Source of the DNA: Bilabrum cf. latius
Taxonomy: Eukaryota
Reading direction: 5' to 3'
Assembly (NCBI GenBank): GCA_965178125.1
Contig: OZ237770.1
Span: 372,001-436,000, forward strand
DNA: 64,000 nucleotides
Shown: positions 1 through 61,400 of the stretch, piece by piece
How the letters are laid out: every line of letters begins with the position of its first letter
Position numbering within the stretch: the first letter of the stretch is position 1
Notes under the pieces: model-generated
What the model was told of the DNA's origin: nothing
The model's database searches: none
Seen by the model: the letters and a program-made list of their open reading frames with translations, nothing else
Made by a program: the position numbers and the translations under genes

Positions 1-1511
1 AGGGAGCTGGCCTCGCCCTCCGCGGTTGCAACCGCCTGAAGGGCTTGGTCTCGCTCGCGCTCCAGGGCGGAGCACCGGCCCGCGAGTACGGTGAGGTCCG
101 AGCGAACCTTCGCGAACTCCTCGCCGCGCTTGCTCATCTGCTTCTCCTTCTCCTCCGCCTCTGATTCTGCCTCGGCCGCCCGCTCCGTCGCCTGCCGCAG
201 CGCCCGCCGTAGCTCCCCCTCCTGCTGCTCCGATCGGCGCAATGCCTCACGGACCTCCTTCAACTCCCCCCGCGCCTCCTCCTCCCCCTGCCGCGCCTGA
301 CGAGTGCCCTCTACCGCCTCCGATCGAGCCCGTGAGGCATCTCCCTGCAGCTCAGACACGCGGTCCTGGAGCCGCCTGCACTCGGACGAGAGCTCGCGCA
401 GCCGGGCCCGAAGCGCCCCCGCGGCCTCCTGCGCCTGCTTGCCCTGCTCCTGCACCCTCCGACTCGCCTCCTGACGGGCCCGCTGCGCTTGTTCCCTGGC
501 ACGCTCTGCCTCCCGCCGAGCCCCCGCAAGCTCCTGCTCGAGCCCCGCCGCTCGCTCCGCCGCTGCCGCTGCCTCGTCCTGCGCCAGCCGCCCTTGTCTC
601 GTGGCCCCCTCCAGCTCTCGCACCCTCCTCTGGAGCCGATCCACCCGGGACTGGAGCGCGGCCCTCTCCCCCTCCGAGCGGCGGTAGGCCTGGGGGGAGG
701 GCTGCAGCACGCCCAGGTCACTCGTCACACCGGTGGTGGTGGAGGAAGGGGCGCCGGCAGACTGTGAAGGTTCGCTGATACCCGTCCACTCGGGGACGGT
801 CGGCGGTGTGACGAGTGATGATTGCAGCGCTGGTGCAGCTGTGATGACTGCTGCTGCGTGGCCCGTCCCACTCGTCACACCATGAGGACTGACGGGTGCC
901 ACGGTATGGCCGATGGAAGGGGTAGCTGCCGGGCCGTGCGAATGAGGGTGCGCCCCGACGCTTGTGTGACGAGTGGGCTGCGGCTACCAGGAGGCAGCAT
1001 CGTGAGCGAGCACCCCGCTCCGAGCAAGTGCTCCGTTGGGAGCAGCAGCAGTGCCATTGGCAGATGCGTCGTCACGCTGCCAGTGCTGGTCACCGTGCTG
1101 CGTCGAGCCCTGCATCTTGCGGATGGCGTGTGGCGAATGCAATGCACTGCGACGCAGCGGTGCTCCTCCGGGAGCCATGGAAGCGCCCATTCCTAAACCC
1201 GACACGCCCGATTGCGTCGCAGCGACCGATTGCTCGTCCAAGCTGGCGGCGGGATTGCCGCCAGCTGCAAACTGGTCGCCTTTCCCGAGGTCTGCTCCGC
1301 TCCATGCACTCGAATCCTGAAATGTTGATCGTGCGGGTCGCTCAGTACCGTCCTGGCTCGTGGAGCCGCCAGGCTTTGGTGTGTCTGGCGCAAGCTGCGG
1401 CAGCAGCCTTCGCAACTGCTGATGAGGGGAATTGCCTGTGGTTGCCATGCTGCGAGTGTATGAATTAATTAATGGAATTGCAGATTTTACCTGAAACATT
1501 GATCGTCCCAT
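1..1511 (-). CDS. Coiled-coil protein, 5' part (runs off the left edge); start at 1511 or 1448; one in-frame TAG at 984
   Basis: ORF 984..1511 continues in frame past the TAG at 984-986 with no TAA/TGA, into an E/Q/R/A-rich heptad region (RAALQSRVDRLQRRVRELEG...ELAGARREAERAREQ). A possible 41-nt GT-AG intron at 1450-1490 makes the start uncertain. Confidence 0.7.
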
Positions 1512-1941
1512 GGCGATGAACTGTCAATGTTTGTTGCACATCGATACGAGCACGTCGACAACACATTCAGCACGTTTCAGCCAGCGAAAGCATCAATGTA
1601 TGAGAGAAAGCGGTAGTTCATTATAATACGGTAAAATCTAGTAGAATGGCGGGTCAAACACTTACGCAGCTCACGAAATATTCAAATCGATCGGTCCGTT
1701 GGGTCATTGGCCGGCGCCGCGGTCGGTCGCGGCTCCGCAGCTGTCGCATCATCACGGTGACAATTGGTCGCTTCCAATCCCGAATCGGTCCCCCCGATTC
1801 CCCGAAAAGCATGCGTTGAGGCATGAATTGCATTGCTACGAGTCGATGGATTCCATTTCAAAATCTATCTCAGCTCAGCTCGCCTAGGTATAACAGTCAA
1901 CAAAGGCCCCTTGCACCAGGGGCCAGCCCAGCAAAGGCACC

Positions 1942-4900
1942 TCACGCCTCCCCAGCCGCCCCGCTCGCCCCTCCAACCGCCGCACCCCCATCACTCGTCA
2001 CACCACCCCGCCCCCCTCCGGCCCTCAGCCCCGCCACCTCCGCCCTCAGAAGCGCCAGCTCCCTCCTCTCCGCCTCCGCCGCAGCTGCACCACCCCCGCC
2101 CGACTTGCCCACGGCACCGAACTGAACCTTCCTGCACCGCTCGGCAAACTGCAGGGAACACATCGATTCCTCCGCGTTCCACTGCACCGGGGACACGTTC
2201 ACCATCATCAGCAGCTTGGCAGTACCTGACAACGAGTCCTGCAGCAGGAACGTGAGCTTGCTGTTGCGGAACGGGACGTGCCCCCCCGCTCCCGCCCCGG
2301 CTCCTCCCGCCGCGCTCCCGCTCTTGGCCTGCCTCTGCCCCAGTGCGGCAACCACCGCGCCAAGTGCACTCAGGCTCTTGTTGATGGCCTGCGCTTCTTT
2401 CAGCTGCTTACCCTGCGCCCTGGTCTTGGACAGCCTCTCTGACCCCGCCAGGTCGATCATGTGCAGCTTGGCACGCCACTTGCCTCCCGTGGCCCCGTCC
2501 TCCCCGCGGACCCGAACGGTTACAACCAGGTGTGACCTGCTGGAGTGCTCGTTCATGTCGTGTGCCGCCGCCGCCCGCCTCTTGCTTCCCTTCCGAAGCA
2601 CCTCCGCCACCTCTGCTGGGCTGCTCACCGCTTCCTCTGTAAGCCCCGGCACGTCCACACCACGGGCGGTGAGCCGCACCTCTAGAGTCGGGGGGCCACC
2701 TCCACCTGGTCTGCTCCCCCCCGCCCTGCGGCTGGCTTTCGATGAAGCTGCCGATGATCCCGCCCCTGCCTTGCCCGCACTCGCCACACCGGCCAGCAGG
2801 TCCCTCACCGTCTCATTGTAGATCTCCAGCATGGACACGCTGAAGCCGTACTTCATCCGGGGGGCCCTTGCACTGCCCTCCTCGAACAGCTCGCTGATGG
2901 CACGGTAGTTCACCCCCCTGTCCTCGGGCGGACCCTCCATGGTGTGCGTCTTACCCGAGCCCGTCTGGCCGTACGCAAGTATGGTGGCGTTGTACCCGTC
3001 CAGCACGCTGTGCACCAGCGGCCTCACCTCCTCGAACACCTCCCTCTGGCTCGACTCCGGGCGGAACACGCGGTCAAAATCGAACCTTCGCTTCAGCGCG
3101 CCCTCCTCGTCGGTGCTCAGCGAAAGTTCGTCCAGCGAACCCTTGGGGAAGGTCACCGCCTTCCTGCTGGCGAGCTTCCTGCCCCTCTCGTGGGACAGGA
3201 TCGGCCTGACCCTGCAGAATACCCGGATGGCGCCCCGCATGTCCACCAGAACATTGTGCAGCTTGCGCCTGCGCTTGCACTCGACGACGTGCATTGCCTT
3301 GTAGTGCTCCACCTCGCCTTTCATCTCTGCCTCTTTCTACATTACCCGCCTGTCAGCTTCCTACTTGGCTGCAGCTAGGTTTTCGGCATTCTCCAGAAGA
3401 GTAGATTCACGCATATCTTCACTCGCTTGCCTGACCGCACTTGCCTACTACTCGTCCCGCTCCTTGCCCAGAGCTGCCAGAGCCTGGGACTGCTGGTCGT
3501 CCCGCTCCTTGCCCAGAGCTGCCAGAGCCTAGGACTGCTGCTCGTCCCGCTCCTTGCCCAGAGCTGCAAGAGCCTGGGACTGCTGCTCGTCCCGCTCCTT
3601 GCCCAGAGCTGCCAGAGCCTACGACTGCTGCTCGTCCCGCTCCTTGCCCAGAGCTGCCAGAGCCTGGGACTGCTGCTCGTCCCGCTCCTTGCCCAGAGCT
3701 GCAAGAGCCTACGACTGCTGGTCGTCCCGCTCCTTGCCCAGAGCTGCCAGAGCCTGGGACTGCTGGTCGTCCCGCTCCTTGCCCAGAGCTGCCAGAGCCT
3801 ACGACTACTGCTCGTCCCGCTCCTTGCCCAGAGCTGCCAGAGCCTACGACTGCTGCTCGTCCCGCTCCTTGCCCAGAGCTGCCAGAGCCTACGACTGCTG
3901 CTCGTCCCGCTCCTTGCCCAGAGCTGCCAGAGCCTAGGACTGCTGCTCGTCCCGCTCCTTGCCCAGAGCTGCCAGAGCCTGGGACTGCTGCTCGTCCCGC
4001 TCCTTGCCCAGAGCTGCCAGAGCCTACGACTGCTGCTCGTCCCGCTCCTTGCCCAGAGCTGCCAGAGCCTGGGACTGCTGCTCGTCCCGCTCCTTGCCCA
4101 GAGCTGCCAGAGCCTACGACTGCTGCTCGTCCCGCTCCTTGCCCAGAGCTGCCAGAGCCTAGGACTGCTGCTCGTCCCGCTCCTTGCCCAGAGCTGCAAG
4201 AGCCTACGACTGCTGCTCGTCCCGCTCCTTGCCCAGAGCTGCCAGAGCCTACGACTGCTGCTCGTCCCGCTCCTTGCCCAGAGCTGCCAGAGCCTAGGAC
4301 TGCTGCTCGTCCCGCTCCTTGCCCAGAGCTGCCAGAGCCTAGGACTGCTGCTCGTCCCGCTCCTTGCCCAGAGCTGCCAGAGCCTAGGACTGCTGCTCGT
4401 CCCGCTCCTTGCCCAGAGCTGCCAGAGCCTGGGACTGCTGCTCGTCCCGCTCCTTGCCCAGAGCTGCCAGAGCCTACGACTACTGCTCGTCCCGCTCCTT
4501 GCCCAGAGCTGCAAGAGCCTACGACTGCTGCTCGTCCCGCTCCTTGCCCAGAGCTGCAAGAGCCTACGACTGCTGCTCGTCCCGCTCCTTGCCCAGAGCT
4601 GCCAGAGCCTACGACTGCTGCTCGTCCCGCTCCTTGCCCAGAGCTGCCAGAGCCTACGACTGCTGCTCGTCCCGCTCCTTGCCCAGAGCTGCCAGAGCCT
4701 GGGACTGCTGCTCGTCCCGCTCCTTGCCCAGAGCTGCCAGAGCCTACGACTGCTGCTCGTCCCGCTCCTTGCCCAGAGCTGCAAGAGCCTGGGACTGCTG
4801 CTCGTCCCGCTCCTTGCCCAGAGCTGCCAGAGCCTGGGACTGCTGCTCGTCCCGCTCCTTGCCCAGAGCTGCCAGAGCCTGGGACTGCTGCTCGTCCCGC

Positions 4901-7900
4901 TCCTTGCCCAGAGCTGCCAGAGCCTAGGACTACTGCTCGTCCCGCTCCTTGCCCAGAGCTGCCAGAGCCTAGGACTGCTGCTCGTCTTGTGTCTTGTGTA
5001 GCTCTGTTAACGCTTGCTGATGAGTCTCAGTAATCTGAGCAATGCGCTTGTGTAGCTCTGATGCATCCTCCTGTGCTGCTTCCAATGCTGCGCCCGATTT
5101 ACCAGCATCAGATGATAGCTGTTTTTCCAACTACTCTACTTTAGCATTGGTGGCTTGCATCTAGTGGTCCAATGCGACCTTAATGGACTACGCATCGGCA
5201 AGCGAGTCCTGTAGCTGCTGGTTCTGCTGCTCCTTGGCCTGCAAGTCGGTCTGTAGCTGCTGGTTCTGCTGCTCCTTGGCCTGCAAGTCGGTCTGTAGCT
5301 GCTGGTTCTGCTGCTCCTTGGCCTGCAAGTCGGTCTGTAGCTGCTGGTTCTGCTGCTCCTTGGCCTGCAAGTCGGTCTGTAGCTGCTGGTTCTGCTGCTC
5401 CTTGGCCTGCAAGTCGGTCTGTAGCTGCTGGTTCTGCTGCTCCTTGGCCTGCAAGTCGGTCTGTAGCTGCTGGTTCTGCTGCTGCAGCACAGCTTCATTG
5501 CTACGTTGCGCCTCGGCTTCCGCTGCCATCTTGGACCTGGATTTCTCAAGCTACCGATCCGCCTACTGTTTGCTTTCCTCAGCTGCGGTAAGCTATGCTT
5601 GCATCCGATCCATCTGGTTCTGCAGATCCACGATCTTCTTCCTGCTGACATCTAGGTCCTTCGCCAAGCGGTCCCTCTCCGTCTGCAGCTCCAAGACAAC
5701 GTCAGTGCCCTGCTGCTGGCCGCCGCGGCTGTCTGTGGAAGTGTCTGTGGGGGTCGCAGGTGCCGGCCGAAGTTGCTACGTCTCTGCCAGCTCGGCCGTC
5801 AGCTTGTGCGCCATCGCCCGACTGGCAGCCAGCTCCTTCTCGCGATCGTCCAACCGAGCCTCCAGCTCATCAATCATCTCCCTGTCCGAGTCCCGTTCCC
5901 GCTGCAATCGATCCAGCGCTTTTCGCCTGCTCTCTTCTGCTTTAGCGTCCCTGGCCCCTGCCTCCCGCAAGTCCTCCACTTCGGCCATCACGTCATCCAG
6001 ATTGCGCTGGGTATCGGATAGTTCCTTGCGGGCCTTCGTCAGCTGCATGCTCCTCTCCTGCAGCTGACTCGCCTGCCCCTGCAGCTCCTGCACCTCTCGC
6101 TCGAGAGCGCCGCATCGTGCCTGCTAGTCGACTAATCTGGCCTCGGCCTGTTCTGCGCGGTGCCTCAGCTCCTCCTCTTCTTCTTCTTCTTGCTGCTGCT
6201 GCTGCAGTGCTGCAGCTGCATCCTGATCCTGCTGGCTTGTGCCAGCGGCCGAATCACTCAAATTTCCCGCGCCCACACTGACTGCAGCGCTCGACGCACT
6301 TGCATGACCCTGCCCACTCGCTGGACCACCTGCCTGTGATGCAATCTGCGACTGCTTCTCCTTGTCCTCCTCATGTCTGCCCCTGTGAATGTATCTCTGC
6401 ACCATGATGCGAAGGGCCTGACACTCGGTGTGCAGCCGAGCACTTGTCACACGCTCTGCTTCCAGCTGCCGGCGAAGATTGGCCGCAGCAGTGGGGTCGA
6501 GCGCAGGGCTCGCAGCCACGTCAACATCGCACTGGCGCGCATCTACCTTGGCCTCGACGGCGGCCTCTCCGTCTCCACCTCCATCTCCATCTCCATCTCT
6601 CTTTCCACTCCCGAGTGTTGCGGCTGTCTCCAGCCTCGCTTCCGCCTCCCGGGCCCGGACCATCCACTGGTGGAGCTCCTTCCTGAGCGATGCACCACCC
6701 TGCAATGCATGCATGCCCGGTGGATTCGATTCCGGGTCCATATCGCGACCGTGTTCCCCCGCACCATCGCGGGGCTCGCCCCCTGCATCCTTCCCAATGC
6801 CCTCTGCTCCTGCTCCTGCTCCATCCAATCCGCCTGCGTCTGTTCGCGTGCCGTCCCCAGCGCCCGCACCAGCTCCCAGCTCCCCATCACCCACTCGCCC
6901 CTTGCCCAGCCTCACCTCAGCTAGTGCCAGCCGACTCGCCATGATGCCCAAGGCCTCCTCCTTCCTGCCCAGTTGCCACCTGGCGTCCTGAAGCGCCACC
7001 ACAGCACGACGAAGCGCAGCCTCGAGGGCCCGTGCCGGCATGGACCCGGCCACCGACAGGTCACGCGCCGCCGCGCTCGCCGCCTGGGCCGTGGGCGAGG
7101 ATGCCCGCCTCCGTGGATGATGCCTCACGGGTGTGCCGCTCGCCGATCGGAGCTGCGCCACGGTGGGAGAGGTGCGCTCGGGGCCCGCCTGTACTTCCTC
7201 GCGCACTGCGGCTGCGATGGAACGGGCCGCCGCAGATGCCGATGGTTTGGACCCGGATGATCCTGGAGAAAACAGCGCTTTCCTGCGCATCGGAGAGCTG
7301 TCCTCGTCATCCTCTGGCCCCCCATTCGATTCCGGATCCCCGTCCGCAGGTCTTGCCCTGCCACCGGTAGCGATACCCCGCCCCGTTGCCCTCGGTAGCG
7401 CCGGGGTAGCCTGCACGCTTGGGGGGAGGCTCGGGGGCTGCGGCTCCGACGACGAACCCCCGGTGGATTCCGGCTCCGGGTCGTTTCCATAGCCCGCAGG
7501 TGTTCTGGTCTGGCGGACAGCAGAGGCGGGAACAGGGGTGCGGTCTGCGGAACCGGCGCCGCGCGAACGCCCCACGGCCCCGCCTTCCGACGGAGATTGG
7601 ATCATGGGAGAAGGGGTGGGGGTCGGGGTCGGGTCCTCCCCCTCGACCTCTGTGTTCACCTATGCTTCCAACTGCTCCTGCTCCTGCTCCTGCTCCTGCT
7701 TCTGCACCCGGTCCTCATCCTCGTCCTCATCCTCGCCCACCAGTGATGTGATCAGCGAGCCGACGCCCTGCTCCAGTGACCCGCCCAGGCTGTACAAGAA
7801 CGAGCCGAAGCCTTCTTCCTCCTGCCCGTCCACCTCGTCCTTCCTACCCACCCCCTTGCTTGTAGTGGGCGAAGGGCCCAGCTCCCCAACCAGCGCACCA

Positions 7901-9138
7901 CCACAGTGCGATGCATCCAGTCGTTCCTTCTCCCACGATGATACCTATTTCAGCTCCGATTCCTCCACCCCCTGCAGCCACCTCGCCGCATCCCTCCCCC
8001 CCTGCAAAGCCGCGAGCAGCCGGAACCTCCACCTCGATTTGTTCTCCTCCTCGCTCAGCCTTGCCCCAAGCTGGGTCAGGGAACCCCGGAGCGCCGCGCA
8101 CTCTGCTTCGTGTTGCGCAGCGGCCACCCCCGCTTGTTCCCTGGCCTTGCGCGCCTGTGCCTCGGCCCCCCTCTGCCTCTCCTTCGCCTCTGACAGCCGG
8201 TCCGCGAACTGCTCCAGCTTACCCTACAGCACGGCGTAGTCGCTCTGGGACTGCTCCGACTGGCGACTTGCCTCCGCTGCTGCGGACTCGGCCGCGGTGG
8301 CGCGGGCTCGGGCGCGGGCCAGCTGCACCCGGGCGTCCCTCAGCTGGACGAGCAGGTGCTCCGTGCGGGTCTGCTCGGCGGCAACGGTGTGACGAGCGAG
8401 GGCGCTGGAGGCAGCTGCCGAGCCCGTAGTGGGGGCGGTTAGTTGAGATTGGGAGCCGCATGCCGAAGATGCCGCTAAGTCCCCACTGGCAGCGCTAGCC
8501 TCGGTCTGGTCCCGACACGATGCTTCCTCCCGGGACTGCAGCACCACCTGCCAGCATTCCGGGCCGAGGGTACCTTCCAAAGCGCTAGGACTGCTCGAGC
8601 CAGACTGACCTGTACTTTCAGATGCAGGCTTTGCATCCTACAAACAGGCCTCCAGCTTGTCAGCCATCATAAGCAAGGCTCCCTGCGAAGGTAGTATTGC
8701 AACTTCTCTACTGCCAAGAGGTTTGTTGGTATCGGCAAATCGACGCGACATCCACACTCGAACTGTAAACGTACCTATTGCTTGCGAATAAGCTGTGCTG
8801 AGCTTTGCTGCTACTCGTACATTAGTCGCTGCACATCGAGAAGTGCTTGCTTCGTTGCCTGCAATGTTGAATCAAGAACACCTAATCACGTGAGTACATG
8901 ACCCCATTGGACGCGAATCATGGAAATTCATCTAGATACGACTAACCTCCAGGGAATCATTGAGTTCTCTTTCCCGTAAAGCAGCTGTCTTTGAAACGGG
9001 TCTTTCCAGGCCGTTCGTACCTGCCAGTGCAGCTGTGGTCCGCTCCTTGTCAGTCGCTTCTTTTAGCAGCTCCTCGTCAGTCAAGCCTACAGGCTAATCA
9101 TCAACTTCATCTCCTAGAAGCCAGCCTGCGAATTCCAT
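1942..9138 (-). CDS. Kinesin-14 family (C-terminal motor) protein, ~2338 aa, with a long coiled-coil/repeat stalk. Predicted exons 9138-8947, 8858-8775, 8682-1942; TAG read as Gln
   Basis: Motor motifs RRKLHN..RGAIRVFCRVRP, AYGQTGSGKT, NEHSSRSH, DLAGSER and HVPFRNSKLT lie at the C-terminus. ORFs 1942, 5188, 5776, 6124, 7660, 7945 and 8224 share one frame separated only by TAG. Introns GTTAGT..TTGCAG (8946-8859) and GTACGT..TCGCAG (8774-8683) keep the frame. Terminal TGA at 1942-1944. Confidence 0.88.
3451..4986 (-). repeat. Coding tandem repeat, 34 x 45 bp, encoding QQSQALAALGKERDE
   Basis: The unit ctcgtcccgctccttgcccagagctgccagagcctgggactgctg repeats head-to-tail without spacers, in frame with the kinesin-14 motor. 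Confidence 0.97.
5209..5484 (-). repeat. Coding tandem repeat, ~6.5 x 42 bp, encoding QNQQLQTDLQAKEQ (two heptads)
   Basis: Identical units ctgtagctgctggttctgctgctccttggcctgcaagtcggt; translated in ORF 5188..5529. Confidence 0.95.
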
Positions 9139-9264
9139 GATTGTGACGCGGATGCGGTCGTGCGTAGCCCCAACCAATGTTAGAATTCATCTTCGAAAAA
9201 TTCCCCGGTTCAACAAGTTGGCAGCCAACAAATTGTACTCCCTTGTATCTCCTCAAAGTAAGGC
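9139..9264. promoter_or_regulatory. Putative bidirectional promoter (126 bp between divergent ATGs)
   Basis: AT-richer gap between the predicted kinesin-14 ATG (9138, -) and the membrane-protein ATG (9265, +). Inferred from gene layout only. Confidence 0.45.
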
Positions 9265-33808: not shown

Positions 33809-33841
<33 letters not shown>

Positions 33842-40733: not shown

Positions 40734-40767
<34 letters not shown>

Positions 40768-49706: not shown

Positions 49707-49957
49707 GGCACAATCCGATCAGGGTCTCAGAAGTAATCCGGATCCATGATGATAAGCAGGGAAGGCAGATCAAACGCTTGATTCTAGATTGCAGACTTTG
49801 TTTTGATTCATCCGGATTGATTTTAGGGTAAAATTTAACTTTGAACTGGCTTTAGAAGCGGAATCACTTCTCAAATTGATACAGGATCCAACACACAACA
49901 CACAATGGAACACAGACACGCAATTAAAACACCCGAATCGCTCCTACACAATGAGCA

Positions 49958-52900: not shown

Positions 52901-55900
52901 GGCACCCCGGGGTGGTGACCCGGTCCCCCTGCCGACGTGTTCCCTGGGTGGTGACCCGGTTCCCCTTCCCACATGTTCCCTTAGCTCGTCGAAATCATCG
53001 CCATCTACTTCAATTGCATCTCCAGTCGACTCATGTGCATGTGCATGTGCATGTGCATGTGCATGTGCATGTGCATGTGCAGGGGCATGTGCATGTGCAT
53101 GTGCATGTGCAGGGGCATGTGCATGTGCAGGGGCAGGTGAAGGTGCTTGCTGCTTGCCTTTCCTCCGACGAGCCAGCAGCAGGGCAGCTGCAGAGGGCTT
53201 GCTCACCTGCCTGGGAGGGGGGGCCGGCGCCAGCGGACGAGCCTCCTCCATCTATTGTGCGGCTGCTGTCTAGCTCGTTTCACCGTGGCTGCCTTCACCC
53301 TTGCCCTCGCCCGTGCCTTTGCCATCGTGGGATGCATCGCCGCCGTGCTTGTCTTGTCTGGACCCAGCCAATGAGGCCGTGACGCTGGGAGACATGGCAC
53401 CGGCAATGGCGTCCCCATCGACCCCGGGGGTACGCGGGGTCATTGCTCCCCTGGTGGGGGGCGGACTCGCGAACGATGCCACGCTGATGTGGTCCTCATC
53501 ACCATCACCATCACCATCACCACCGTCCCCATCACTATACTCATTCGCACCGCCATCTCTATTCCCGCCAAAATCACCTGCCCCGGGCTCTCTGCCACCC
53601 TCTCTCTCACCCGGCCCTGGGTCATCCTCGATCTCCTAACCGAGGGACCCATAGCTAGGCACGTCCGCTCCTCTACCCCCCCACCCCTGCACCTGCTCCT
53701 GCTCCTTCTCCTCCTCCTCGCCGTTGCCATTGCCATCGCCGTCGATGGAGTCAGCCTCCGGGACATCCACTTCTCCCAGTCCTCCCGCCTTGGACCAAGA
53801 CTGACTCAAATCAACTCGCTGCATCGATCGACCTCCCTGCGACGACTGGCCCACGTCCCCGCTTCCCCTTGTTGGCGTCGTGCGTTTGTCCTGAGAGACT
53901 GCATTCGAGTGGGCTGCTGAGTCCCCGCTGCCATGCAATGCACCCCCGCTGGCCCCCAACCCCTCCCCCAACTGAGTCACGCTAGCGGCCAGCTGCTCCA
54001 GCGCCACCTCGATCCGATCCATTTGGCCACCCCCCGCAGAACCGGGGCTTGCGCCGGGGCTGCGCAGCGGCCGCACATCGGTGTGACGAGTATCTTCCAG
54101 GGCTAGCTCCACTCCTTTTCCGCCTGCTGGTCCTGCCAGCTCGCCGTGACCCTCAGCCTGTGAGTCGGTTGGCTCACCCGTGGGGCCCTGGTTCTGGCTC
54201 TGCATCGGCACTGACCCGACATGCTCATGTGCGCGCACCTGCACCTGCCCGCGCACCTGCTCATGTTCCCTGTCGATCCCTGCTCGACTAAGATCTCCGC
54301 TCGTCACACCAACATCAGTACCACTCGTCACACCGAGTGGTTCCCCAGGCCCAGCCAGCGCGGACAGTGTCAGCGTGCCACCCTCGGCTTCATCTCCATC
54401 TCCATCTCCATCCCGATCTTCTTCTCCTTGGTTTTCTTCCTCCTCGGCTTGCTGTCCCCGCCCATGCTGCTTCTGCTTGGCTCTCCCGCTATTTCGATTG
54501 CCTTCTGCACGCCCCACCCCTTCCTCAGGCCCTCCCCTCCCAGGGGGCTCCCCCCCGATGCTCCATCGCCTTACACCCTCCTTCTCTTCGATGCCGAGTC
54601 CCTGCTCCGATCCTACACCCCCACCCCCATCCCCACCCTCCGCCAGCACCATCAGCGACCGGGCCAGCTCCCGCATCGCACCCCGGTCCAAGCCGGCGAT
54701 CGTCTCTAGAGAGGGGCCGCGAGCACCACCGTGCGATGCACCCGCATCCACGGAGCCCCCGTCGGCCTTTTCATCATGTTCAGTGTGACGAGTGACCTAC
54801 CCCCCCCGGGCCCGCCTGCTCTGCAGCTGCTTGCCCAGCGCCTCGGCCAGCGATGCCGCCAGCTTCACAGCCACCCGCTCCACGACAGCGGCGCTGCTGT
54901 CGCTGTCGGCGTCTTGGGTGTGACGAGTGCGGTCCGTCGGTGGCTCCTGTGTACCCACCATTCCTGGTCTGACCCTAAAGCCTGTACTGGTGCCACTCGT
55001 CACACTGGTACCCCCGCCAGCGCCACCGGCTCCCTTTCGCAGCGGCCCGCTGGTCCGGTGATCGGTTGCAACCGCCGCTGCGGGGGTCGCGGTGGGGGTG
55101 GGAGGGGCGGGCATACCCGGAGGGGGCGCCGGCTGCGGTGCACCAAATGCACTCGTCACACCGCTCGCGCCGCTGGCTAGCTGCCAGCCGCCTGCAGTGC
55201 CCTCCCCGCTGCCACTGCCCCTCCCCCTCTTCCCCCCCTTCTCCCTCTCCCTCTACCTCTCCAGCTGCCCCCGCATCCTCTGCACCTTCTCCTCTGCCTC
55301 TGCCTCCACAATGGCCAGCCGATTCGCGATCGCCTCCACTGCCTCCTCCGCCTCCCTCCTCCCCTCTTCAGCCTCCAGCACCCTGCCCCTCAGAGCATCC
55401 AGCTCGGCCCGCTCCCGCCCCGCAGCGTCCTCTCCGTCCAGCGCCCTGGTCTCCAGCTCTTGTTCCCTGGACCTGGCCGCCTGCAGCTCCCTCACCAGCC
55501 CCTCTTTCTCCTGACCCCACGCCTCCTCCCTCTCCACCAGCAGACCCTCCGCCTGCCTCCGCCTGTCCCTCTCCTCATCCACGCGCCGCTGCAGCCGGGA
55601 CACAAGGGCGCGCGCCTCCTGCTCCCCCCCCAGCCCCAGCCGAGCCATCGCCTCCGCGCTCAGCCCAAGCTCCCGCCCCAAGCTCACCAGGGTCTGCGCC
55701 CCCGGGCGGCGCCCCACCCCCCTTGCCCTTGCAGCGAAGAGCAGTGAGCTCTGAGTCTCGGACACGTGGTCGTCCGATGGACTCAGGCACACCACCAGCG
55801 TCAGGGAACAGCCGCGCTCGGCGATCACTGAGGCGGGGGTGTGACGAGTGCTTGAAGATCCCCCTTGCCCCCCCTCGTGTTCCTCCTCCCTCTCCTTCTC

Positions 55901-58072
55901 CTCCGCATTCCCATTCCCCCCCCCACTCCCACTCCCTCTGCCACTGGCTTGGTGCTCCCCGAGCCGAATGCCCAGACCCTCCCCCGCCGTGGCCAAACAT
56001 GGCTGCAGCAGCCGAGTGAGCCTCGAGTCACGCCAGGGAACAAACGGGCCCTTGCCCCTCCTGCGGGCGTGCCTTGCCGCCGCCTCGCTGCCCCGCCCCG
56101 CCACCACCACCGTGGAGCCGGCCTCATCGGCAGCCGCAGCCAGGCCAGACACCACGGTCCCAAGCGCAGTCAGCGACGAGTTGATGTCCCGTGCCTCAGC
56201 CAGGGACTGGGGGTCTATCCCCGCCCCCGCACCGGGGTCCAGCCGCTGACCCCTCCCACCTCTACCCCCCTTCCCCTGGGGAGACCCCTTGGCCCCCGAC
56301 CATGGCCCCGCCCCCGCCGCTGCCCTATGCAGCCTCTCCGACCCCGCCAGATCCACGAAGGTCAGTCGACTCTCCTGCCAGGGCCCCACCTCGCGGACCC
56401 AGCCCCGCCCCGCCCCGCCCCCCTCCTCCTCACCACTCGTCACACCGTCATCCAGCCCGTCGAACCGTGACTGCAACCCACCCGAGGACTCCGCTGTCCC
56501 CCTCCCCCCTTCGGCTCCGTACCGACCACCACTCTCCACACCTGCCTCCCTGACCCTCCTCACCTGCCGCCTCCTCACTCGAACCAAAAAGAAGGAATGC
56601 CCGCGGGACGAGGCGTGGTTCCAAGCCGTCGATGCCACCGTCCGCTGCCTGGCGCCTTCGGACAACAAGCCGAGCACGCCCCTGACGTCACTGCATGCGT
56701 GTTCTCCAAGCCCACGGACCCAGGACCCCCCAGGCCCGTCCCGCACTTCCAAATCCCGCAGCACGCGGGACCCCTGCGTGTGACGAGTGCTGCCCACGGC
56801 GCCGCCTTGCCTGCCCCCCTCGGGCCCCCACTCGTCACCGTCCTCCTCCTCTCCTATCGCCGACCCCCCACTCGTCACACCGCCACCGCCTCGGCCGTCG
56901 TGGTGCTCCAAGAGGTCCTGTGCCCTCCCGAGATACAGCTGAAGGAAGGAAACGCTAAACCGGAACTCACTCCAGGACTCCACCTCGCACTCCACCCGGC
57001 CGTCTGCCCCTGCGTCCGCCCCTGCGTGCACCCCCCCCAGAATGGATGAGGCAGACGAGGACAGCGGGGACAGGGCGGGGCTCCCCACCCGCACGCCGGA
57101 CACATGCTCACGATCATGCTCGATGTCATGCTCATGCTCGCTGTCATGCTCATGCTCGGCTCTCCACTTGGCACCCCGACCAGCCGCCGCCCACGCAGCC
57201 GAGGGCGAGTCGGGCGCGAAGACTCCCTCCACCGCCCCCCTGCCCCTGCCTCTGTTTCCCCCCCCGCCCAAGCCAAGTGCCGAGGAAGCAGAGGCGCTGG
57301 AGGACGCGCGGGATCGGATCGCATCTCCCGCCCCATTGTTCCCCGGCCCACCGCCCCTCCCGCCCTGCATCCTCACATTCACCCTCCTCCTCATCCTCTA
57401 TAGATTCATCCTCCTCCTCTCTCTCCTTGGCCGCCCCAGCCGCGCCGCCGCCTCGAACAGCTCGTGCATGGCTCTCGGGATGAGACCCAGCCTAGAGGCG
57501 TCGTGCGCCGTGGCCCTGCGGCCGTCCAGCGAGGGCCCGAAGAGAGTGTAGGTCTTCCCCGAGCCAGTCTGACCATAGGCAAGCACCGTGGAGGACACGC
57601 CCCGCAGAGCGTCAAGCACCGCAGCGGCACCGGCGTCCCTGTACACGTCCGCCTGCGCCGCGTGGGGGTCGAAGGCGTGGTCGAAGACGAACCTTCGCTC
57701 GCGTTCGCTCCCCCGGGCCCCTGAGCCCCCGCTGGTGCCGGAGCTGCTCCGGGCACCGCTCTCGCTATCGTAAGGCCCCTCCCCCCGCCCCCCCCTCTGC
57801 TTGGATGGGGCCCTCGCCGCGCCCCGTCTGGGAGGCGAGGGCGATGCGGCTGATCGATTCCGTGCACCGCGCTGCCTGGAGCCAGACCTGGCCTTTGAGG
57901 AGCGCGTCTGCTGTGATTGCACGTGCTGGTGAGGGGCTGCTCGCAGCGTGATGCTCTGCTCTGACGGGTGGGCCTGGATGCGTTGGCACATGCCGTCGTG
58001 AGACGCGGGCGGGCGCAGGCGGGCGCAGATCGTGACGCGCTGGCAATCGACGACGCCCGATGACCGAGCCAT
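49958..58072 (-). CDS. Kinesin-like protein with N-terminal motor, coiled coil and long disordered tail, ~2704 aa; many in-frame TAG
   Basis: Motifs VTICARLRP, FVFDHAF, LAYGQTGSGKTYTL, GLIPR, SVSFLQLY, NHASSRGH, LTFVDLAGSER, INSSLTALG, FVPWRDSRLTRLLQ and SETQSSLLFAARA. ORFs 57398, 55253, 54797, 53636, 53270, 52475, 52019, 51245, 50648 and 49958 share one frame joined by TAG only. Ends at TAA 49958-49960, where GC content drops. Confidence 0.85.
53032..53130 (-). repeat. (CATGTG)n microsatellite encoding an (HA)n run
   Basis: catgtgcatgtg... tract; AHAHAPAHAHAH in ORF 52475..53251. Confidence 0.9.
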
Positions 58073-58456
58073 GATTGAAGATAAAGGGCTCTAGGGCTGA
58101 CCCGTCACAGGTGACACAGGCGCATCGTCATCCGCCCGACTCTGTGCACGAACCCTGCGCATGGCAAGCTTTGGAGGCCGGTACCGAGACTGCCCGGTTT
58201 GATCTCCCTATCGCTGCATGAAACCGATCGAGTATGTATTGACAGCTAATACCACCCGACCAAATATACAAATATGAGTAAACTTAGCGTGTGATTGCGG
58301 TGCAATCGCAAACGGCAAGCAACATTCGTCGTCACACCACTTTCCAAATCCAAGCAAATATTCCCTCCGCTACAGGGCGCTTTGCGCTCGAGAAGTAAGA
58401 GCGCCATCCGGTTTAGTAGACTAGTGCGCTACTGGCGCAGGCCTCTGGTTGATTAC

Positions 58457-61400
58457 ATGCTGCCTAACCCCTACAAACGGTTGCGAACAGAGGCCGGTCA
58501 GACAACCAGTACAGATCGATCGGCGTCTGGTAGTGTTATGAGCGAACGAGGAATTACACATGAACCCAGTAGGATACGCGATCCTATTGTCAGGCCTACA
58601 CCGCTGCATCCGGACTATGACGTGGACCGTGCGGCACAGCACCTGTCAGCGAACCGCCCCTCCGCGTCGGATTTCTTCTACATGCCCGCTGGCAAGGCCT
58701 GGTGGTTGCACTCGGAAGCCTGCAGGGAGGCCTAGGCCTCTGGAATAGCCTCAGAATGCGGCTGCCACTCTGTGCCCCAGCCATCACTCCCTGCCGAAGA
58801 CGGAGTAGTGTCTAGCACGTCCTCCCTACTGCCAGCGGTGCCCTCCTCCTCCCAGTGGGAGGGCCCTTGGCTCAGGTTCGCGAAACCGTACGCCTTCCGG
58901 TACAGGGCCTCTGCCAAGCGGCGCTGGCTGGGCCGCACTCTCCTGGACGTGGTGGAATCTGAGTTCGGAGGCTCCGAGCCCGGATGGTGGAGGGAGGGCA
59001 TCCGGTCGGGGCGGGTGCGGGTGCGGGGAAGGAGGGTGGACCCGGGGCACGTGCTGCGGGACGGTGACACGGTTGCGTCACACGTCATACGGTACGAGCC
59101 TCCTGCACTGGCAGTGTCGGGCGAGTGGGCCAGCGAGCCAGAGGCAGCCAAGACAGCCGTGCGGTCGCTGGTGCGCCATCTGCTCCCCGGGATGGCGGTG
59201 GTGGACAAGCCCCCGTCCGTGCCCGTGCACCCCTCAGGCCCCCACGGGCGGTAGAGCCTCACCATGCTGCTAGAGGGACTCGCGGGGATCGGGGGGTTGC
59301 ACCCGGTGCACCGGCTGGATCGGCCCACCGGTGGGTTGGTGCTCATGGGGAGGTGCAAGGCTGCCGCCAGGGAACTAACCCAGCTGTTGGCCACGGTGGA
59401 GGCGGGACTCAACAAGGAACAGCCTCAGGAGGAACTGGAGCACGGACATGAACCAGAGGGGGCGAAGGCCAGTGGGCAGGTGTCCGCTGCCAAGCCTTCC
59501 ACAGGACCGAGCGGTGACAAAGCACCGCGCGAGCCCCAGCCCCAGCCCCAGTCCCAGCCAATGTCAAAGCGGAAGGCCCGCAGGCTCGTAGCCATGCAGG
59601 AGGCGAAAGACCGGAAGAAGAGGGCCAGGGAACAAGCCAAGGGGGGCCTCATGGCTCGGCTGGAGGCAGCCATGGGGGGCAGGGAACAAGCCAGGGAACA
59701 AGGCTGGATGGCCGTCCGGAAGACGTACGTGGCCAGGGCCACGGCTGGGGGCTGGGCGGCGGTGGGGAGCGCACTCGTCACACCTCCTAGGGCGGGCGCG
59801 GGGCCCGAGGAGCTTGCAGAGGCGCAGGGGCGGCTCGCTCGGGCCTTCCCCCGCCCCTCCTGGCTGGGACCATTGGGCGGTGTGACGAGTGCGCCCGACT
59901 GGAGGGTGAGCTGGGAGTGGTGCGGGCCCATGGGGCCGGGCAAGAGCCTGTACGGGGGAGAGGTGAAGCAGGCTGTGACGAGTGATGAAGCGACGACGGG
60001 TGCGTCGCTCGACATAGGGGCAATCGATAGAGCCGCAGCATCTTCATCTTCATTCCCAACCGCAGCGCCGCCATCATCCGCAGCATCATCTCCTTCGCCG
60101 TCTCCTGCCCGGCCTCCCCACCCGCTGGGCTGGTTGTGGGGGGCGGGTCCGTTGCCCGCCGCAGCGACCGCAGGTCCCAAGCTGGGCAAGCGGCAGAGGG
60201 GGGAAATGCGAAGGACGGGTGCGGGTGCATTGCACGGTGGTGCTGCTCCAGTGGGTGTGACATCCGCTGGAGCCAGGGGTCATGCAACGGCGGGGGGTGC
60301 CCCTGCCTCTGGACCTGGCGCCGCCCCGCACTCGTCACACCGCGACTGGCCGGATCCCATCGCCGCGTCCTGCCCCTCGCCCGCCTCGCCGCTGGCCCCC
60401 GTGGACAGGCCCGGATATTGGCTCCGAGTCGAGTGCCCCCTGGGCTCCTTGATGCAGATGGCGCAGCACCTGAGGGGGCAGCGCGACAAGGCCAAGAATG
60501 AGGACGATGAAAAGGCCATGAAAGCGGACGAAGGCAAAGAAGTGGCGGGTGCTGATGGAGGGACGGGACCCCCTGATTTGGGCTCCGAGTCCCCGATCCC
60601 TCCCCGGCTGTGCACAGTTCAGAGCGCCCTGCCTGTGTGTGCGGGTGGCCGGCGGGCAGTGACCTACTTCAGGCCCATCGGGGGGTCTTGGTCATGGGGG
60701 GGTGATGGAGGGAGTGGGAGAGCTGCATCATCATCATCATCACCATCATCGTCGTCCTCGTCGTCATCATCATCATCATCATCATCTGGCCCAGTGTTTG
60801 CGTGTCGCCTGGCAAGCGGACGGACCCACCAGATCCGGGTGCACCTGCAGATGCTGGGCCTTCCCATCGAAAATGACCCCAAGTACGCCATGGAGACTGA
60901 CACCGGGTCACCATAGCATCTACATGCAGCAAGTTCAAGCTCAAGCTCAGGCGCAGGTGCAGGTGCATCGCACTGTAGCGCGCTGGACCAGCTCCGGGGC
61001 CTGCCGTCCCTCCAGCTGGCCATGCGCGAGTCAGGCGTGCAGTTGCCTGTGGGCCATGGCCAGAGCGTTGGAGAGAAGGAAAAAGAAGAGGTGGTGACGA
61101 GTGCAGTAGGAGCGGGTGATTTGGGGGCAGGAAGTGCAATGGGGGTGAGCAAGACGATCGAGGCTGCATCGGCTCCCGATGGGTCTCACTCGTCACACCC
61201 AGGAGAGTCCCTGTACCTGCGCGGAATCGCTGACCCCTTCCGTCCCGGGATCGTGGTGAGAGCCATGCAACGTGTGACGAGTGCATCGGGCCAGGCGGGC
61301 CCAGGGGCATCAGCGCCGCTCCTGGGAAGCAGTGCGCTGGCCCGCGCCGCTTCGATGGCAGAGCAGGCAGGGGTGCCCCGTGAGCCGGGAGATGATGAGG

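What the first reader, a model, noticed from the sequence alone, without database searches (positions are those of the whole stretch)
719..61283. A hyper-abundant 12-mer, CACTCGTCACAC, is written into coding exons regardless of strand or frame
Seen: about 45 perfect copies (31 on +, 14 on -) plus many one-mismatch copies (e.g. 6442, 20782, 28570, 29917, 41499, 54299). A uniform-base estimate is ~0.01 copies per 64 kb. It is read in all five stop-free frames (GVTS, CDE, HSSH, LVT, TRH), so the signal is at the DNA/RNA level and not a peptide motif. It clusters in Gly/Ala/Ser-rich insertions. I saw no perfect copy in pyruvate kinase, the NDH-2, membrane-protein or chitin synthase genes, or the kinesin-14 motor core. 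Inference: it behaves like bacterial DNA-uptake, HIP1 or Chi words but in a eukaryote. It could be a binding site for an abundant chromatin or recombination protein, a methyltransferase target, a product of biased gene conversion, or an ultra-short self-propagating insert. I know of no described eukaryotic equivalent.
Basis: partly seen in the sequence, partly recalled or inferred. Interest (0 to 1): 0.87.

Follow-up and report, generated by a model that had tools for sequence, protein, structure and literature searches.

The report
Hyper-abundant DNA words inside protist genes
A GC-rich protist that reads TAG as an amino acid carries dozens of exact copies of one 12-letter DNA word, and several rarer words, inside the loosely constrained translated parts of its genes, much like bacterial uptake or HIP1 words but with no known mechanism in eukaryotes.

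Summary
CACTCGTCACAC occurs 45 times (31+, 14-) against 0.02 expected, and a synonymous-codon shuffle gives 0.4. All 45 copies lie in long ORFs that are open only if TAG is read as sense. A probable relative's ELP3 has TAG at 3 of 3 aligned Q positions. Copies share nothing beyond the 12 letters plus weak CG flanks. They occur in five frames and never in the TGA frame, but 27 of 45 read xVTS (18 GVTS). They sit in lineage-specific loops and G/A/S-rich stretches, not in conserved cores. Contigs of four runs from three studies, one possibly the source sample, match wherever long pieces were laid. New here: this is the commonest of at least five or six sharply bounded 10-14-letter words, two of them palindromes. 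A lower-GC, TAG-recoded metagenome contig shares two of the words. One relative keeps two copies and a more distant one lacks both. My best reading (0.45) is DNA words kept by sequence-specific readers through selection or drive. The main rival (0.25) is a frame-neutral 12-bp micro-insert. The mechanism is unproven.

The parts
719..730 (+). W1 copy, antisense to ORF 3-1523(-), phase 1, read GVTS
806..817 (-). W1 copy, sense, phase 1, read LVT
869..880 (+). W1 copy, antisense, phase 1, GVTS
964..975 (-). W1 copy, sense, phase 2, TRH
1992..2003 (+). W1 copy in C-terminal tail of kinesin-14, antisense, GVTS
14737..14748 (+). W1 copy, BEACH ORF, antisense, GVTS
14869..14880 (+). W1 copy, BEACH ORF, antisense, GVTS
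17245..17256 (+). W1 copy, BEACH ORF, antisense, GVTS
18543..18554 (+). W1 copy, BEACH ORF downstream of BEACH domain, antisense phase 2, CDE
20020..20031 (+). W1 copy, BEACH ORF, antisense, GVTS
22018..22029 (-). W1 copy, BEACH ORF, sense phase 1, LVT (one-off copy 27 bp away)
22520..22531 (-). W1 copy, BEACH ORF, sense phase 0, HSSH
23596..23607 (+). W1 copy, BEACH ORF, antisense, RVTS
24885..24896 (+). W1 copy, BEACH ORF, antisense phase 2, CDE
25225..25236 (+). W1 copy, BEACH ORF, antisense, GVTS
25514..25525 (-). W1 copy, BEACH ORF, sense phase 0, HSSH
28588..28599 (-). W1 copy, BEACH ORF, sense phase 1, LVT (one-off copy 18 bp away)
30013..30024 (+). W1 copy, BEACH ORF, antisense, CVTS
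30199..30210 (+). W1 copy, BEACH ORF, antisense, GVTS
30922..30933 (+). W1 copy, BEACH ORF, antisense, GVTS
31474..31485 (+). W1 copy, BEACH ORF, antisense, GVTS
32425..32436 (+). W1 copy, BEACH ORF, antisense, SVTS
33955..33966 (+). W1 copy, BEACH ORF, antisense, GVTS
35734..35745 (+). W1 copy, BEACH ORF, antisense, SVTS
36196..36207 (+). W1 copy, BEACH ORF, antisense, GVTS
39824..39835 (+). W1 copy, ORF 39474-43991(-), antisense, SVTS
41161..41172 (+). W1 copy, ORF 39474-43991(-), antisense phase 2, CDE
42326..42337 (+). W1 copy, ORF 39474-43991(-), antisense, SVTS
50800..50811 (+). W1 copy, 2895-aa kinesin ORF, antisense, GVTS
51896..51907 (-). W1 copy, kinesin ORF, sense phase 0, HSSH (one-off copy 18 bp away)
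52231..52242 (-). W1 copy, kinesin ORF, sense phase 1, LVT
54322..54333 (+). W1 copy, kinesin ORF, antisense, GVTS (one-off copy 24 bp away)
54783..54794 (-). W1 copy, kinesin ORF, sense phase 2, TRH
54918..54929 (-). W1 copy, kinesin ORF, sense phase 2, TRH
54994..55005 (+). W1 copy, kinesin ORF, antisense, SVTS
55150..55161 (+). W1 copy, kinesin ORF, antisense, GVTS
55839..55850 (-). W1 copy in a lineage-specific loop of the kinesin motor, sense, TRH
56434..56445 (+). W1 copy in a lineage-specific loop of the kinesin motor, antisense, GVTS
56778..56789 (-). W1 copy in a kinesin motor loop, sense, TRH; kept in relative P0002, absent in P0004
56869..56880 (+). W1 copy in the same kinesin motor loop, antisense, GVTS; kept in P0002, absent in P0004
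59772..59783 (+). W1 copy, pseudouridine synthase ORF(+), sense phase 1, LVT
59880..59891 (-). W1 copy, pseudouridine synthase ORF, antisense, GVTS
60329..60340 (+). W1 copy, pseudouridine synthase ORF, sense phase 0, HSSH
61187..61198 (+). W1 copy, pseudouridine synthase ORF, sense phase 0, HSSH
61272..61283 (-). W1 copy, pseudouridine synthase ORF, antisense, RVTS
24..61411 (.). W2, palindrome GGTTGCAACC (often C..G flanked): 11 dispersed copies, 10 read VAT
17480..59334 (.). W3, palindrome CCACCGGTGG (6 of 8 with AT..AT flanks): 8 dispersed copies, 7 read (S/P)TGG (STGG 6, PTGG 1)
16253..60973 (.). W4, GTGCATCGCAC: 12 dispersed copies in six frame/orientation classes, 6 read GASH
490..59700 (.). 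W5, CCAGGGAACA(AG): 14 dispersed copies in five frame/orientation classes, 7 read xRE (REQ 6, AREQ 5, REH 1); its 9-letter core recurs 3 times in L002
14381..37438 (-). 7685-codon ORF (BEACH domain protein) open only with 23 in-frame TAG read as sense; carries 20 W1 copies
49958..58645 (-). 2895-codon ORF (kinesin with expanded loops), 21 in-frame TAG, 12 W1 copies
58295..61711 (+). 1138-codon ORF (RluA-type pseudouridine synthase with long insert), 5 W1 copies
39474..43991 (-). 1505-codon ORF with no Pfam family, 3 W1 copies
3..1523 (-). ORF running off the window, coiled-coil-like, 4 W1 copies
1942..8871 (-). Kinesin-14 ORF: 1 W1 copy in the tail, none in the motor core or the 5.5 kb coiled-coil part
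37428..39023 (-). Pyruvate kinase, word-free
44370..49706 (+). Chitin synthase ORF, no perfect W1 copy
12217..14451 (-). NDH-2 with one canonical GT-AG intron, word-free

Best explanation
CACTCGTCACAC is a double-stranded-DNA signal, not a peptide or RNA motif. It is the commonest member of a small lineage-specific vocabulary of sharply bounded 10-14 bp words, several of them perfect palindromes. I infer that each word is recognised by a sequence-specific reader; palindromic words suggest dimeric DNA-binding proteins. New copies arise independently at unrelated sites in fast-evolving, weakly constrained coding DNA, most likely by substitution or very short conversion tracts rather than as part of a longer element. 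Exact copies are then held or multiplied by selection for the bound state or by a transmission bias (drive). Because the window is about 94% coding, the words have to sit inside ORFs. Protein-level selection only filters them: none in the TGA frame, few in the Cys-containing frame, most in the harmless xVTS frame, and none in conserved cores. Shown here: reality, DNA-level nature, sharp boundaries, filtering, multiple words, sharing with a probable relative, and site turnover.
For: Enrichment. 45 copies against 0.02 and against 0.41 under the synonymous shuffle. VTS uses one codon triplet in 30 of 36 cases, with rare codons.

Boundaries. Information drops to background at -3 and +14. Among 990 copy pairs, flank identity matches the chance expectation and no pair extends 6 letters or more. 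Each copy is therefore an independent instance of a defined site.

Mismatch spectrum. Counts for 0/1/2/3/4 mismatches are 45/23/19/40/333 against a null of 0/0.5/5.8/53/354: perfect copies outnumber one-off copies. By my own model, not a tool result, constant birth with neutral decay would give at least as many one-off as perfect copies. 18 of the 23 single mismatches fall on the six outer letters and 5 on the six inner ones (tally), as for a recognition site with a core.

Orientation. The 30:15 ratio equals that of 4-5-mismatch background matches, about 0.67-0.70 antisense. That is what origin from near-cognate sequence predicts.

Vocabulary. W2-W5 have 8-14 copies each against 0.13-0.52 under the shuffle. 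Two are perfect palindromes whose favoured flanks extend them to 12-14 bp.

A probable relative. L002 has 55.6% GC against about 65%, has in-frame TAGs, holds a W1 pair inside an ORF read as HSSH and GVTS, and has the W5 core 9-mer 3 times.

Turnover. Relative P0002 keeps both kinesin-loop copies while their surroundings have indels. P0004, with near-identical anchors, has a loop of similar length (54 vs 51 aa) and neither copy.
Against: No reader, binding, modification or drive was observed; all of that is inference.

A functional genome-wide site would not obviously tolerate word-free stretches of 12.7 kb and 8.5 kb.

Frame use is more skewed (27:3 between the two open antisense frames, where the background is about 1:1) than origin from near-cognates alone predicts, so strong peptide filtering must be added.

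The word is exactly 12 = 4 codons, and W3, W4 and W5 have natural 12-letter forms. That fits a frame-neutral insert at least as well.

The substitution-versus-insertion question was not settled. The only informative ortholog comparison (P0004) is at protein level in a loop that also changes length by indels.

Only 64 kb plus one 6.4 kb contig were examined, so 'genome-wide' is an extrapolation.
Confidence: 0.45

Rival explanations
1. Frame-neutral micro-insertion. Each copy is a 12-bp (four-codon) unit inserted as such. The source could be an ultra-short selfish insert, a stereotyped repair or excision scar, or one round of templated synthesis at a break (for example a telomerase-like enzyme copying a 12-nt template). 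Inserts survive only where four extra residues are tolerated.
For: The unit is exactly 12 bp with razor-sharp ends and unrelated flanks. Copies sit in lineage-specific loops of conserved domains and in G/A/S-rich expansions. The three sense frames are used evenly, 5/5/5. There is weak flank preference, CG on either side in 13 and 15 of 45 copies against 8% background, as for a target preference. Copies cluster locally, including four same-orientation pairs 18-27 bp apart. The spectrum looks like copies born perfect that then decay. The reverse complement is a 12-nt substring of a tandem 9-mer array seen in unrelated loci, which is the 1.3-unit length typical of telomerase templates (recalled).
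Against: There is no target-site duplication: flank matches for k=1/2/3 are 11/5/0 of 45. Random orientation with one lethal frame predicts antisense:sense of 2:3; the observed ratio is 30:15, equal to the compositional background. The window's loops are no longer than the P0004 loop that lacks both copies, 51 vs 54 aa. Companion words W2 and W3 are 10- and 14-bp palindromes, awkward as frame-neutral inserts. Single mismatches concentrate at the word's ends rather than being uniform or highest at the CpG. The flanks of the copies do not continue the 9-mer period. I know of no enzyme that inserts a fixed 12-mer.
Confidence: 0.25
2. Degraded longer mobile element or copy-paste among low-complexity regions. 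The words would be the best-kept cores of MITE/RPE-like in-frame insertions, or patches spread by ectopic conversion between similar G/A/S-rich stretches.
For: Words co-occur in the same inserted, low-constraint segments. 8 of the 11 intervals of 60-110 bp between W1 copies (at most 1 mismatch) are in opposite orientation. L002 has an inverted pair 97 bp apart.
Against: Inverted partners are equally common upstream (6) and downstream (8), and direct partners are as common (5 and 5). Most copies have no partner with 3 or fewer mismatches within 160 bp. There is no fixed spacing or order between any two words. There is no pair-specific flank identity in 990 pairs. Lengths of the inverted pairs (97-120 bp) are not consistently multiples of three.
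Confidence: 0.07
3. Protein-level motif. xVTS and the other readings would be selected short linear peptides, and the DNA identity would be secondary.
For: 27 of 45 copies read xVTS, often followed by Ala. W2 and W3 are read in one frame in 10 of 11 and 7 of 8 cases.
Against: 18 of 45 copies are in four other frame and orientation classes that give unrelated peptides. Synonymous codons are not used: 30 of 36 VTS and 10 of 14 VAT use one triplet each, and 6 of 11 STGG one 12-base codon string, all built from non-preferred codons. The amino-acid-preserving shuffle gives 0.4 copies.
Confidence: 0.03
4. Artefact or chance. The word would come from an adapter or linker, a mis-assembly, or base and codon composition.
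For: None found. The stretch is a metagenome-type assembly, and the best DNA holder may be the source sample.
Against: Logan contigs of four runs from three studies match the window with 0 other letters in the long pieces laid. One X3 contig spans 53536-60716, which contains 13 copies. Copies keep giant ORFs open and avoid the TGA frame. Shuffles and Markov nulls give less than 1 copy. The word recurs in an independent contig, L002.
Confidence: 0.01

Closest known systems
DNA uptake sequences of competent bacteria (DUS of Neisseriaceae, USS of Pasteurellaceae); Frye et al. 2013, PMC3630211 (abstract read)
   Same: An exact 9-12-letter word in very many copies (about 1 per kb recalled for bacteria; 0.7 per kb here). 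It lies on both strands and inside genes in any open frame, is conserved as a clade-specific 'dialect' while individual sites turn over, has more perfect than one-off copies, and has a core more constrained than its edges.
   Different: This is a eukaryotic nuclear contig (kinesins, a BEACH protein, a spliceosomal intron) with no known natural competence. There are several unrelated words instead of one. The words are strongly excluded from conserved protein segments. No uptake machinery is known that would explain a drive.
HIP1 (GCGATCGC) of cyanobacteria; PMC5861425 and PMC4390886 (search listing and start of abstracts only)
   Same: A hyper-abundant short word written into coding DNA, kept by selection, with a function unknown for decades. 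It is palindromic like W2 and W3 here. It is linked to sequence-specific readers (orphan methyltransferases).
   Different: HIP1 is an 8-mer in a bacterial phylum with known cognate methyltransferases. The main word here is 12 letters and not palindromic, and no modification data exist for it.
Rickettsia palindromic elements, selfish DNA inserted in frame into protein-coding genes (recalled: Ogata et al. 2000; PMC1779305 seen only in a search listing)
   Same: DNA-level repeats that live inside ORFs, are translated, and survive where the protein fold tolerates extra residues (surface loops).
   Different: RPEs are about 100-150 bp elements with internal palindromic structure and family consensus. 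Here the shared unit is 12 bp, with no shared flanks, no inverted-repeat partner and no target duplication.
Hyper-abundant clade-specific words reported by other agents of this scan in giant viruses and soil bacteria (AI notes, unchecked)
   Same: Short exact words in any frame and on either strand, clade-specific, with an unidentified reader proposed.
   Different: Those are other genomes (viral or bacterial) with 8-10-mers. None is eukaryotic or shares this word. I tested none of them.
Low-complexity or 'cryptically simple' coding expansions of GC-rich protists (recalled)
   Same: The words live in G/A/S-rich, fast-evolving, indel-prone insertions within otherwise conserved proteins.
   Different: Simple-sequence slippage makes local tandem or scrambled repeats. 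It does not make the same sharply bounded 12-mer at 45 unrelated sites in six genes and in another organism.

Membership tests
DUS/USS (bacterial DNA uptake sequences) | Exact short word, hundreds- to thousands-fold over-represented, on both strands, inside genes | tested here: met
   45 copies against 0.02 expected, 31+/14-, all in ORFs
DUS/USS (bacterial DNA uptake sequences) | Host is a naturally competent bacterium whose uptake machinery binds the word | tested here: not met
   The contig is eukaryotic: kinesin, BEACH, chitin synthase, a GT-AG intron. Uptake itself is not testable here.
HIP1 / highly iterated palindromes | The word is a palindrome | tested here: not met
   W1 is not self-complementary. 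W2 and W3 are palindromes, but their sequences differ from HIP1.
HIP1 / highly iterated palindromes | Cognate DNA methyltransferases modify the word | not testable with these tools
   No modification data and no whole genome are held.
MITE / RPE-like in-frame mobile element | Terminal inverted repeats or palindromic body with shared internal sequence | tested here: not met
   No side-specific inverted partner. No flank identity beyond chance in 990 pairs.
MITE / RPE-like in-frame mobile element | Target-site duplication | tested here: not met
   Flank matches for k=1/2/3 are 11/5/0 of 45.
Tandem repeat / minisatellite | Head-to-tail copies | tested here: not met
   The closest perfect copies are 63 bp apart. 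TRF arrays do not contain the word.
Short linear peptide motif | The peptide is conserved while synonymous codons vary | tested here: not met
   30 of 36 VTS use one codon triplet. 18 of 45 copies give other peptides.
Spliceosomal (mini-)intron signal | Fixed orientation relative to the gene, GT..AG ends, removed from the ORF | tested here: not met
   Both orientations occur within one gene. Copies keep a 7685-codon frame open. The one real intron found is 211 nt, GT-AG, and carries no copy of the word.
Transcription-factor / architectural-protein binding site | Sharply bounded 10-14 bp site, palindromic for dimers, core more constrained than edges | tested here: met
   18 of 23 single mismatches are at outer positions.
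Transcription-factor / architectural-protein binding site | Demonstrated binding by a protein | not testable with these tools
   Needs DAP-seq, ChIP or pull-down.

The most novel reading that the evidence does not exclude
A eukaryotic lineage maintains a heritable vocabulary of exact 10-14 bp DNA words, written into the tolerant parts of its own genes at about one word per 300-500 bp of low-constraint DNA. The words would be propagated by a sequence-specific drive, such as conversion bias or a break-repair template, or read by dedicated genome-wide factors. That would be the first nuclear counterpart of bacterial uptake/HIP1-type words. The boldest sub-reading is that the 12-mer is a four-codon, frame-neutral selfish insert, the smallest mobile unit known.
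Probability: 0.35. Interest if true: 0.9.

Novelty: categorically new. Interest (0 to 1): 0.8.

Why it matters
Over-represented exact words have been a bacterial theme (DUS, USS, HIP1, Chi, REP). Each one exposed a dedicated machine that reads the genome as text. Finding the same statistical signature inside translated genes of a eukaryote implies an unknown nuclear process that recognises or writes 12-letter words. Here the signature comprises several words, sharp boundaries, sharing with a probable relative and turnover of sites. It would also show how DNA-level signals and protein coding share the same letters in a genome with almost no non-coding space. It offers a concrete handle, a defined oligonucleotide, for pull-down or DAP-seq. 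The host is interesting in its own right: it reads TAG as sense, and TAG aligns with glutamine in a probable relative. Its pyruvate kinase is closest to stramenopile sequences, and my two literature searches found no variant nuclear code reported for that group.

Tried and rejected
Whole genome: none is held, so genome-wide counts, telomere ends and reader genes could not be examined.

RNA evidence: no RNA holder is listed. All four runs laid were contigs, so nothing can be said about expression or about the word's presence in mRNA.

Metagenome pair scan: 7 of the 8 loci (L001, L003-L008) are AT-richer contigs where the pair arises from tandem or inverted arrays of a 9-mer. I judged them unrelated to the dispersed word. 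Only L002 is informative.

The pair scans of prokaryote genomes and viral contigs found 0 loci.

Protein searches: the first kinesin search was swamped by low-complexity words and gave 1 hit. A 397-aa BEACH piece with three copies found nothing. Cluster look-up added no new variants of the loop.

TAG identity within the window: the chitin synthase PDB alignment did not cover any TAG. The pyruvate kinase TAG falls in a variable column. One kinesin TAG aligns with R in P0002. TAG=Q therefore rests on L002's ELP3 (3 of 3), and P0004 ending exactly where the window has Q is only a hint.

No tRNA or Rfam family was found in the window.

Rejected: terminal-inverted-repeat partners, fixed spacing between words, pair-specific flank sharing and target-site duplication.

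The opposite-orientation rule for close pairs is 7 of 7 among perfect copies but weakens to 8 of 11 with one-off copies. I do not rely on it.

Nucleosome-scale periodicity was not tested, because 45 sites are too few.

Literature: the word itself appears only inside unrelated primers. Searches for UAG reassignment in GC-rich nuclear genomes or stramenopiles and for over-represented dodecamers in protists found nothing relevant.

Earlier notes of this scan hold nothing on this genome or on look-alike stretches.

Full report
OBSERVATION. The word CACTCGTCACAC occurs 45 times in the 64 kb window, 31 on + and 14 on -, at the stated coordinates. Dinucleotide-preserving shuffles expect 0.02. With one mismatch allowed there are 68 sites against 0.35 expected. 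Aligning the 45 copies with 40-base flanks shows unrelated flanks. Position-by-position counts show information only at the 12 letters. There are weak preferences next to them: G at -1 in 24 of 45, C at +12 in 29 of 45, G at +13 in 22 of 45. CG flanks the left side in 13 copies and the right side in 15, against an 8% background.

THE CODING CONTEXT. Stop-to-stop ORFs on one strand abut each other in the same frame. The separating codon was TAG in 20 of the 24 ORF ends I checked. The four exceptions were TGA: the kinesin-14 end and three ORFs in other frames. Reading TAG as sense fuses the ORFs into giant frames. These are 7685 codons (BEACH-domain protein, 23 TAGs), 2895 codons (a kinesin), 2309 (kinesin-14), 1778 (chitin synthase), 1505 and 1138 (pseudouridine synthase), with pyruvate kinase (531 codons) and NDH-2 smaller. 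The ten main ORFs end in TGA (7) or TAA (3), so only TAG appears recoded.

The window's own TAGs fall in unalignable or variable columns, and one aligns with R in P0002. A probable relative's contig, L002, gives the clearest evidence: its ELP3 has TAG at 3 of 3 aligned Q positions of solved ELP3 structures. ORFs cover about 94% of the window. NDH-2 has one canonical 211-nt GT-AG intron, so introns exist but are rare. The best named matches of the pyruvate kinase are stramenopiles (Cafeteria 63%, Mucochytrium 61%, oomycetes and brown algae 58-60%). That is a single-gene hint, not a phylogeny.

WHERE THE WORD SITS. All 45 copies are inside these ORFs. Thirty are antisense to the gene: 27 in the phase that reads xVTS (GVTS 18, SVTS 6, RVTS 2, CVTS 1), 3 in the phase that reads CDE, and 0 in the phase that would create TGA. 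Fifteen are sense, 5 in each phase (HSSH, LVT, TRH). The empty TGA phase is itself evidence that these stretches are translated.

The signal is not a peptide. Amino-acid-preserving synonymous shuffles give 0.41 copies (maximum 3 in 300). VTS is encoded by the word's triplets in 30 of 36 occurrences, where codon usage predicts about 0.8, and this uses non-preferred codons such as GGT and AGT.

Density follows constraint. It is 0.87-2.6 per kb in the BEACH, big-kinesin, pseudouridine-synthase and 3-1523 ORFs, whose codon-position GC is nearly flat and which are 36-41% G+A+S. It is zero in pyruvate kinase, NDH-2, chitin synthase, ORF 9881-11935 and the 5.5 kb coiled-coil part of kinesin-14. The Spearman correlation with GC is 0.59. 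In the big kinesin's motor domain, all four copies lie in lineage-specific loops between conserved blocks. This rests on the translation, the anchors confirmed, and a kinesin consensus that I recalled.

IT IS NOT AN ARTEFACT. Logan contigs of four public runs from three studies match the window with no differences in the long pieces laid. One contig covers 53536-60716, which contains 13 copies, and no indel was reported at any copy. The best holder may be the source sample, but a second study (X5) agrees.

SHAPE OF THE FAMILY. Counts for 0, 1, 2, 3 and 4 mismatches are 45, 23, 19, 40 and 333. A Markov-2 null gives 0, 0.5, 5.8, 53 and 354. The excess is greatest for perfect copies and is gone by three mismatches. 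By my own reasoning, not a tool result, constant birth with neutral decay would give at least as many one-off as perfect copies. So copies are young, or removed by indels, or actively kept.

Of the 23 single mismatches, 18 fall on the six outer letters and 5 on the six inner ones (my tally). The orientation ratio (0.67 antisense) equals that of 4-5-mismatch background matches (0.67-0.70). The 27:3 split between the two open antisense phases does not match the background, which is about 1:1. Among 990 copy pairs, exact flank extension follows the chance expectation and no pair extends six or more letters. That excludes a longer element and variable copy-paste patches. Inverted partners are no commoner on one side than on the other, and there is no target-site duplication.

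A VOCABULARY, NOT ONE WORD. After masking tandem repeats, other words stand out.
- GGTTGCAACC is a perfect palindrome with 11 copies. A C precedes it in 9 of the 11.
- CCACCGGTGG has 8 copies, 6 of them as the 14-letter palindrome with AT on each side.
- GTGCATCGCAC has 12 copies.
- CCAGGGAACA(AG) has 14 copies.
- CGATCGGAGC has 10 copies.

Each has unrelated flanks. Synonymous shuffles of the first four (the fifth was not shuffled) give only 0.13-0.52 copies. Each of these four has one dominant reading: VAT in 10 of 11, (S/P)TGG in 7 of 8, GASH in 6 of 12, xRE in 7 of 14. The last two also occur in other frames and orientations. All share the distribution of the 12-mer and are absent from 8.4-14.7 kb and 42.7-50.6 kb. 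No two words keep a fixed spacing.

RELATIVES. A scan of JGI metagenome contigs for an inverted pair of the word returned 8 loci. Seven are AT-richer contigs in which the pair arises from arrays of a 9-mer, and I judged them unrelated. The eighth, L002 (6.4 kb, 55.6% GC), has unique flanks. All of its in-frame stops that join ORFs are TAG. It encodes ELP3 with a 90-residue insertion. It carries the pair inside an ORF, read as HSSH and GVTS, and has the 9-letter core of the CCAGGGAACA word three times, once inside the ELP3 insertion. A probable relative with a much lower GC content therefore shares at least two words.

Protein fragments of closer relatives show turnover. P0002 is 80% identical overall, with identical conserved blocks. 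It keeps both copies of one kinesin loop while the surrounding loop has indels. P0004 is 56-64% identical, with near-identical anchors. Its loop is of similar length (54 vs 51 residues) and has neither copy.

INTERPRETATION. The data require a DNA-level process that produces or preserves exact, sharply bounded words at unrelated sites, with protein selection filtering the outcome. I favour (0.45) sequence-specific readers whose sites arise in weakly constrained coding DNA and are maintained by selection or a transmission bias. Five things point that way: the palindromic companions, the core-versus-edge pattern of mismatches, the background-like orientation ratio, the sharing of words with a probable relative, and the lack of any insertion signature.

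The main rival (0.25) is a frame-neutral four-codon insertion. It explains the exact length of 12, the loop location and the even use of sense frames. It lacks a target duplication and a known enzyme. The rivals of a longer mobile element, a peptide motif and an artefact are largely refuted (37; 19).

No binding, modification, drive or expression was observed. Only 64 kb plus 6.4 kb were available.

COMPARISON WITH KNOWN SYSTEMS. The statistical behaviour matches bacterial DUS/USS (PMC3630211, abstract read) and HIP1 (PMC5861425 and PMC4390886, listing and start of abstracts). Living inside ORFs recalls Rickettsia palindromic elements (recalled). Membership fails for each: the host is eukaryotic, the main word is not a palindrome, and there is no element structure. 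My searches found no described eukaryotic counterpart. Other agents of this scan report similar words in giant viruses and bacteria (unchecked AI notes), so the scan has found this kind of signal before on other DNA, but not in a eukaryote.

Noticed in passing
window 1-64000 (for example the in-frame TAGs of ORF 14381-37438); L002 787-2835: TAG is a sense codon. It separated same-frame ORFs in 20 of 24 ORF ends checked. Reading it through gives ORFs of up to 7685 codons. The ten main ORFs end in TGA (7) or TAA (3). In L002's ELP3, TAG aligns with Q at 3 of 3 positions of solved structures. The best named pyruvate kinase matches are stramenopiles, and two literature searches found no variant nuclear code reported for that group.
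   Followed up: partly
window 3451-4986 and 5209-5483: A 45-bp unit repeated 34 times (96% matches) and a 42-bp unit repeated 6.5 times lie inside the kinesin-14 coiled-coil region. Each 45-bp unit contains a TAG, which accounts for most of that ORF's 42 in-frame TAGs.
   Followed up: no
window 14381-37438 (-): A single uninterrupted 7685-codon ORF encodes a BEACH-domain protein. About 41% of its residues are G, A or S, and it has many short simple repeats (GM, GS, GA, HG runs).
   Followed up: no
window 13817-14027 (-): A canonical GT-AG intron of about 211 nt, visibly AT-richer than the exons, splits the NDH-2 gene after the N-terminal dinucleotide-binding motif. It is the only intron I identified in the window.
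   Followed up: partly
window 37428-39023 (-); L002 2215-2485: Conserved enzymes carry lineage-specific G/A/S-rich insertions. Pyruvate kinase has about 32 residues between its barrel and C-terminal domains. The relative's ELP3 has about 90 residues where solved ELP3 structures have 3.
   Followed up: no
L001, L003, L004, L005, L006, L007, L008: Unrelated AT-richer metagenome contigs carry direct and inverted arrays of a 9-mer (ACTCGTCAC) that contain the 12-mer as a substring. In L003 and L005 two such arms flank about 85 AT-rich bases. By locus coordinates several of these arrays lie near an end of the stretch held. Their nature is unknown. L005 also has two ORFs joined by a single TAG.
   Followed up: no
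window 53340-54006 and 42001-42667: Summed contig depth jumps to 278-3387 (bin 53340-54006), against about 18 for the organism's own contigs in X3, in all four runs laid. Some stretch there is therefore shared with many other contigs of these samples (a simple repeat or a repeated family).
   Followed up: no
window 14381-14451: The read-through ORFs of the BEACH gene (C-terminal end) and of NDH-2 (upstream extension) overlap by about 70 bases on the same strand. The true NDH-2 start is probably further downstream.
   Followed up: no
P0004 versus window 56650-56990 (-): The relative's predicted protein ends exactly where the window's kinesin has Q. This suggests a TAG there in the relative, and so the same recoding.
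   Followed up: no
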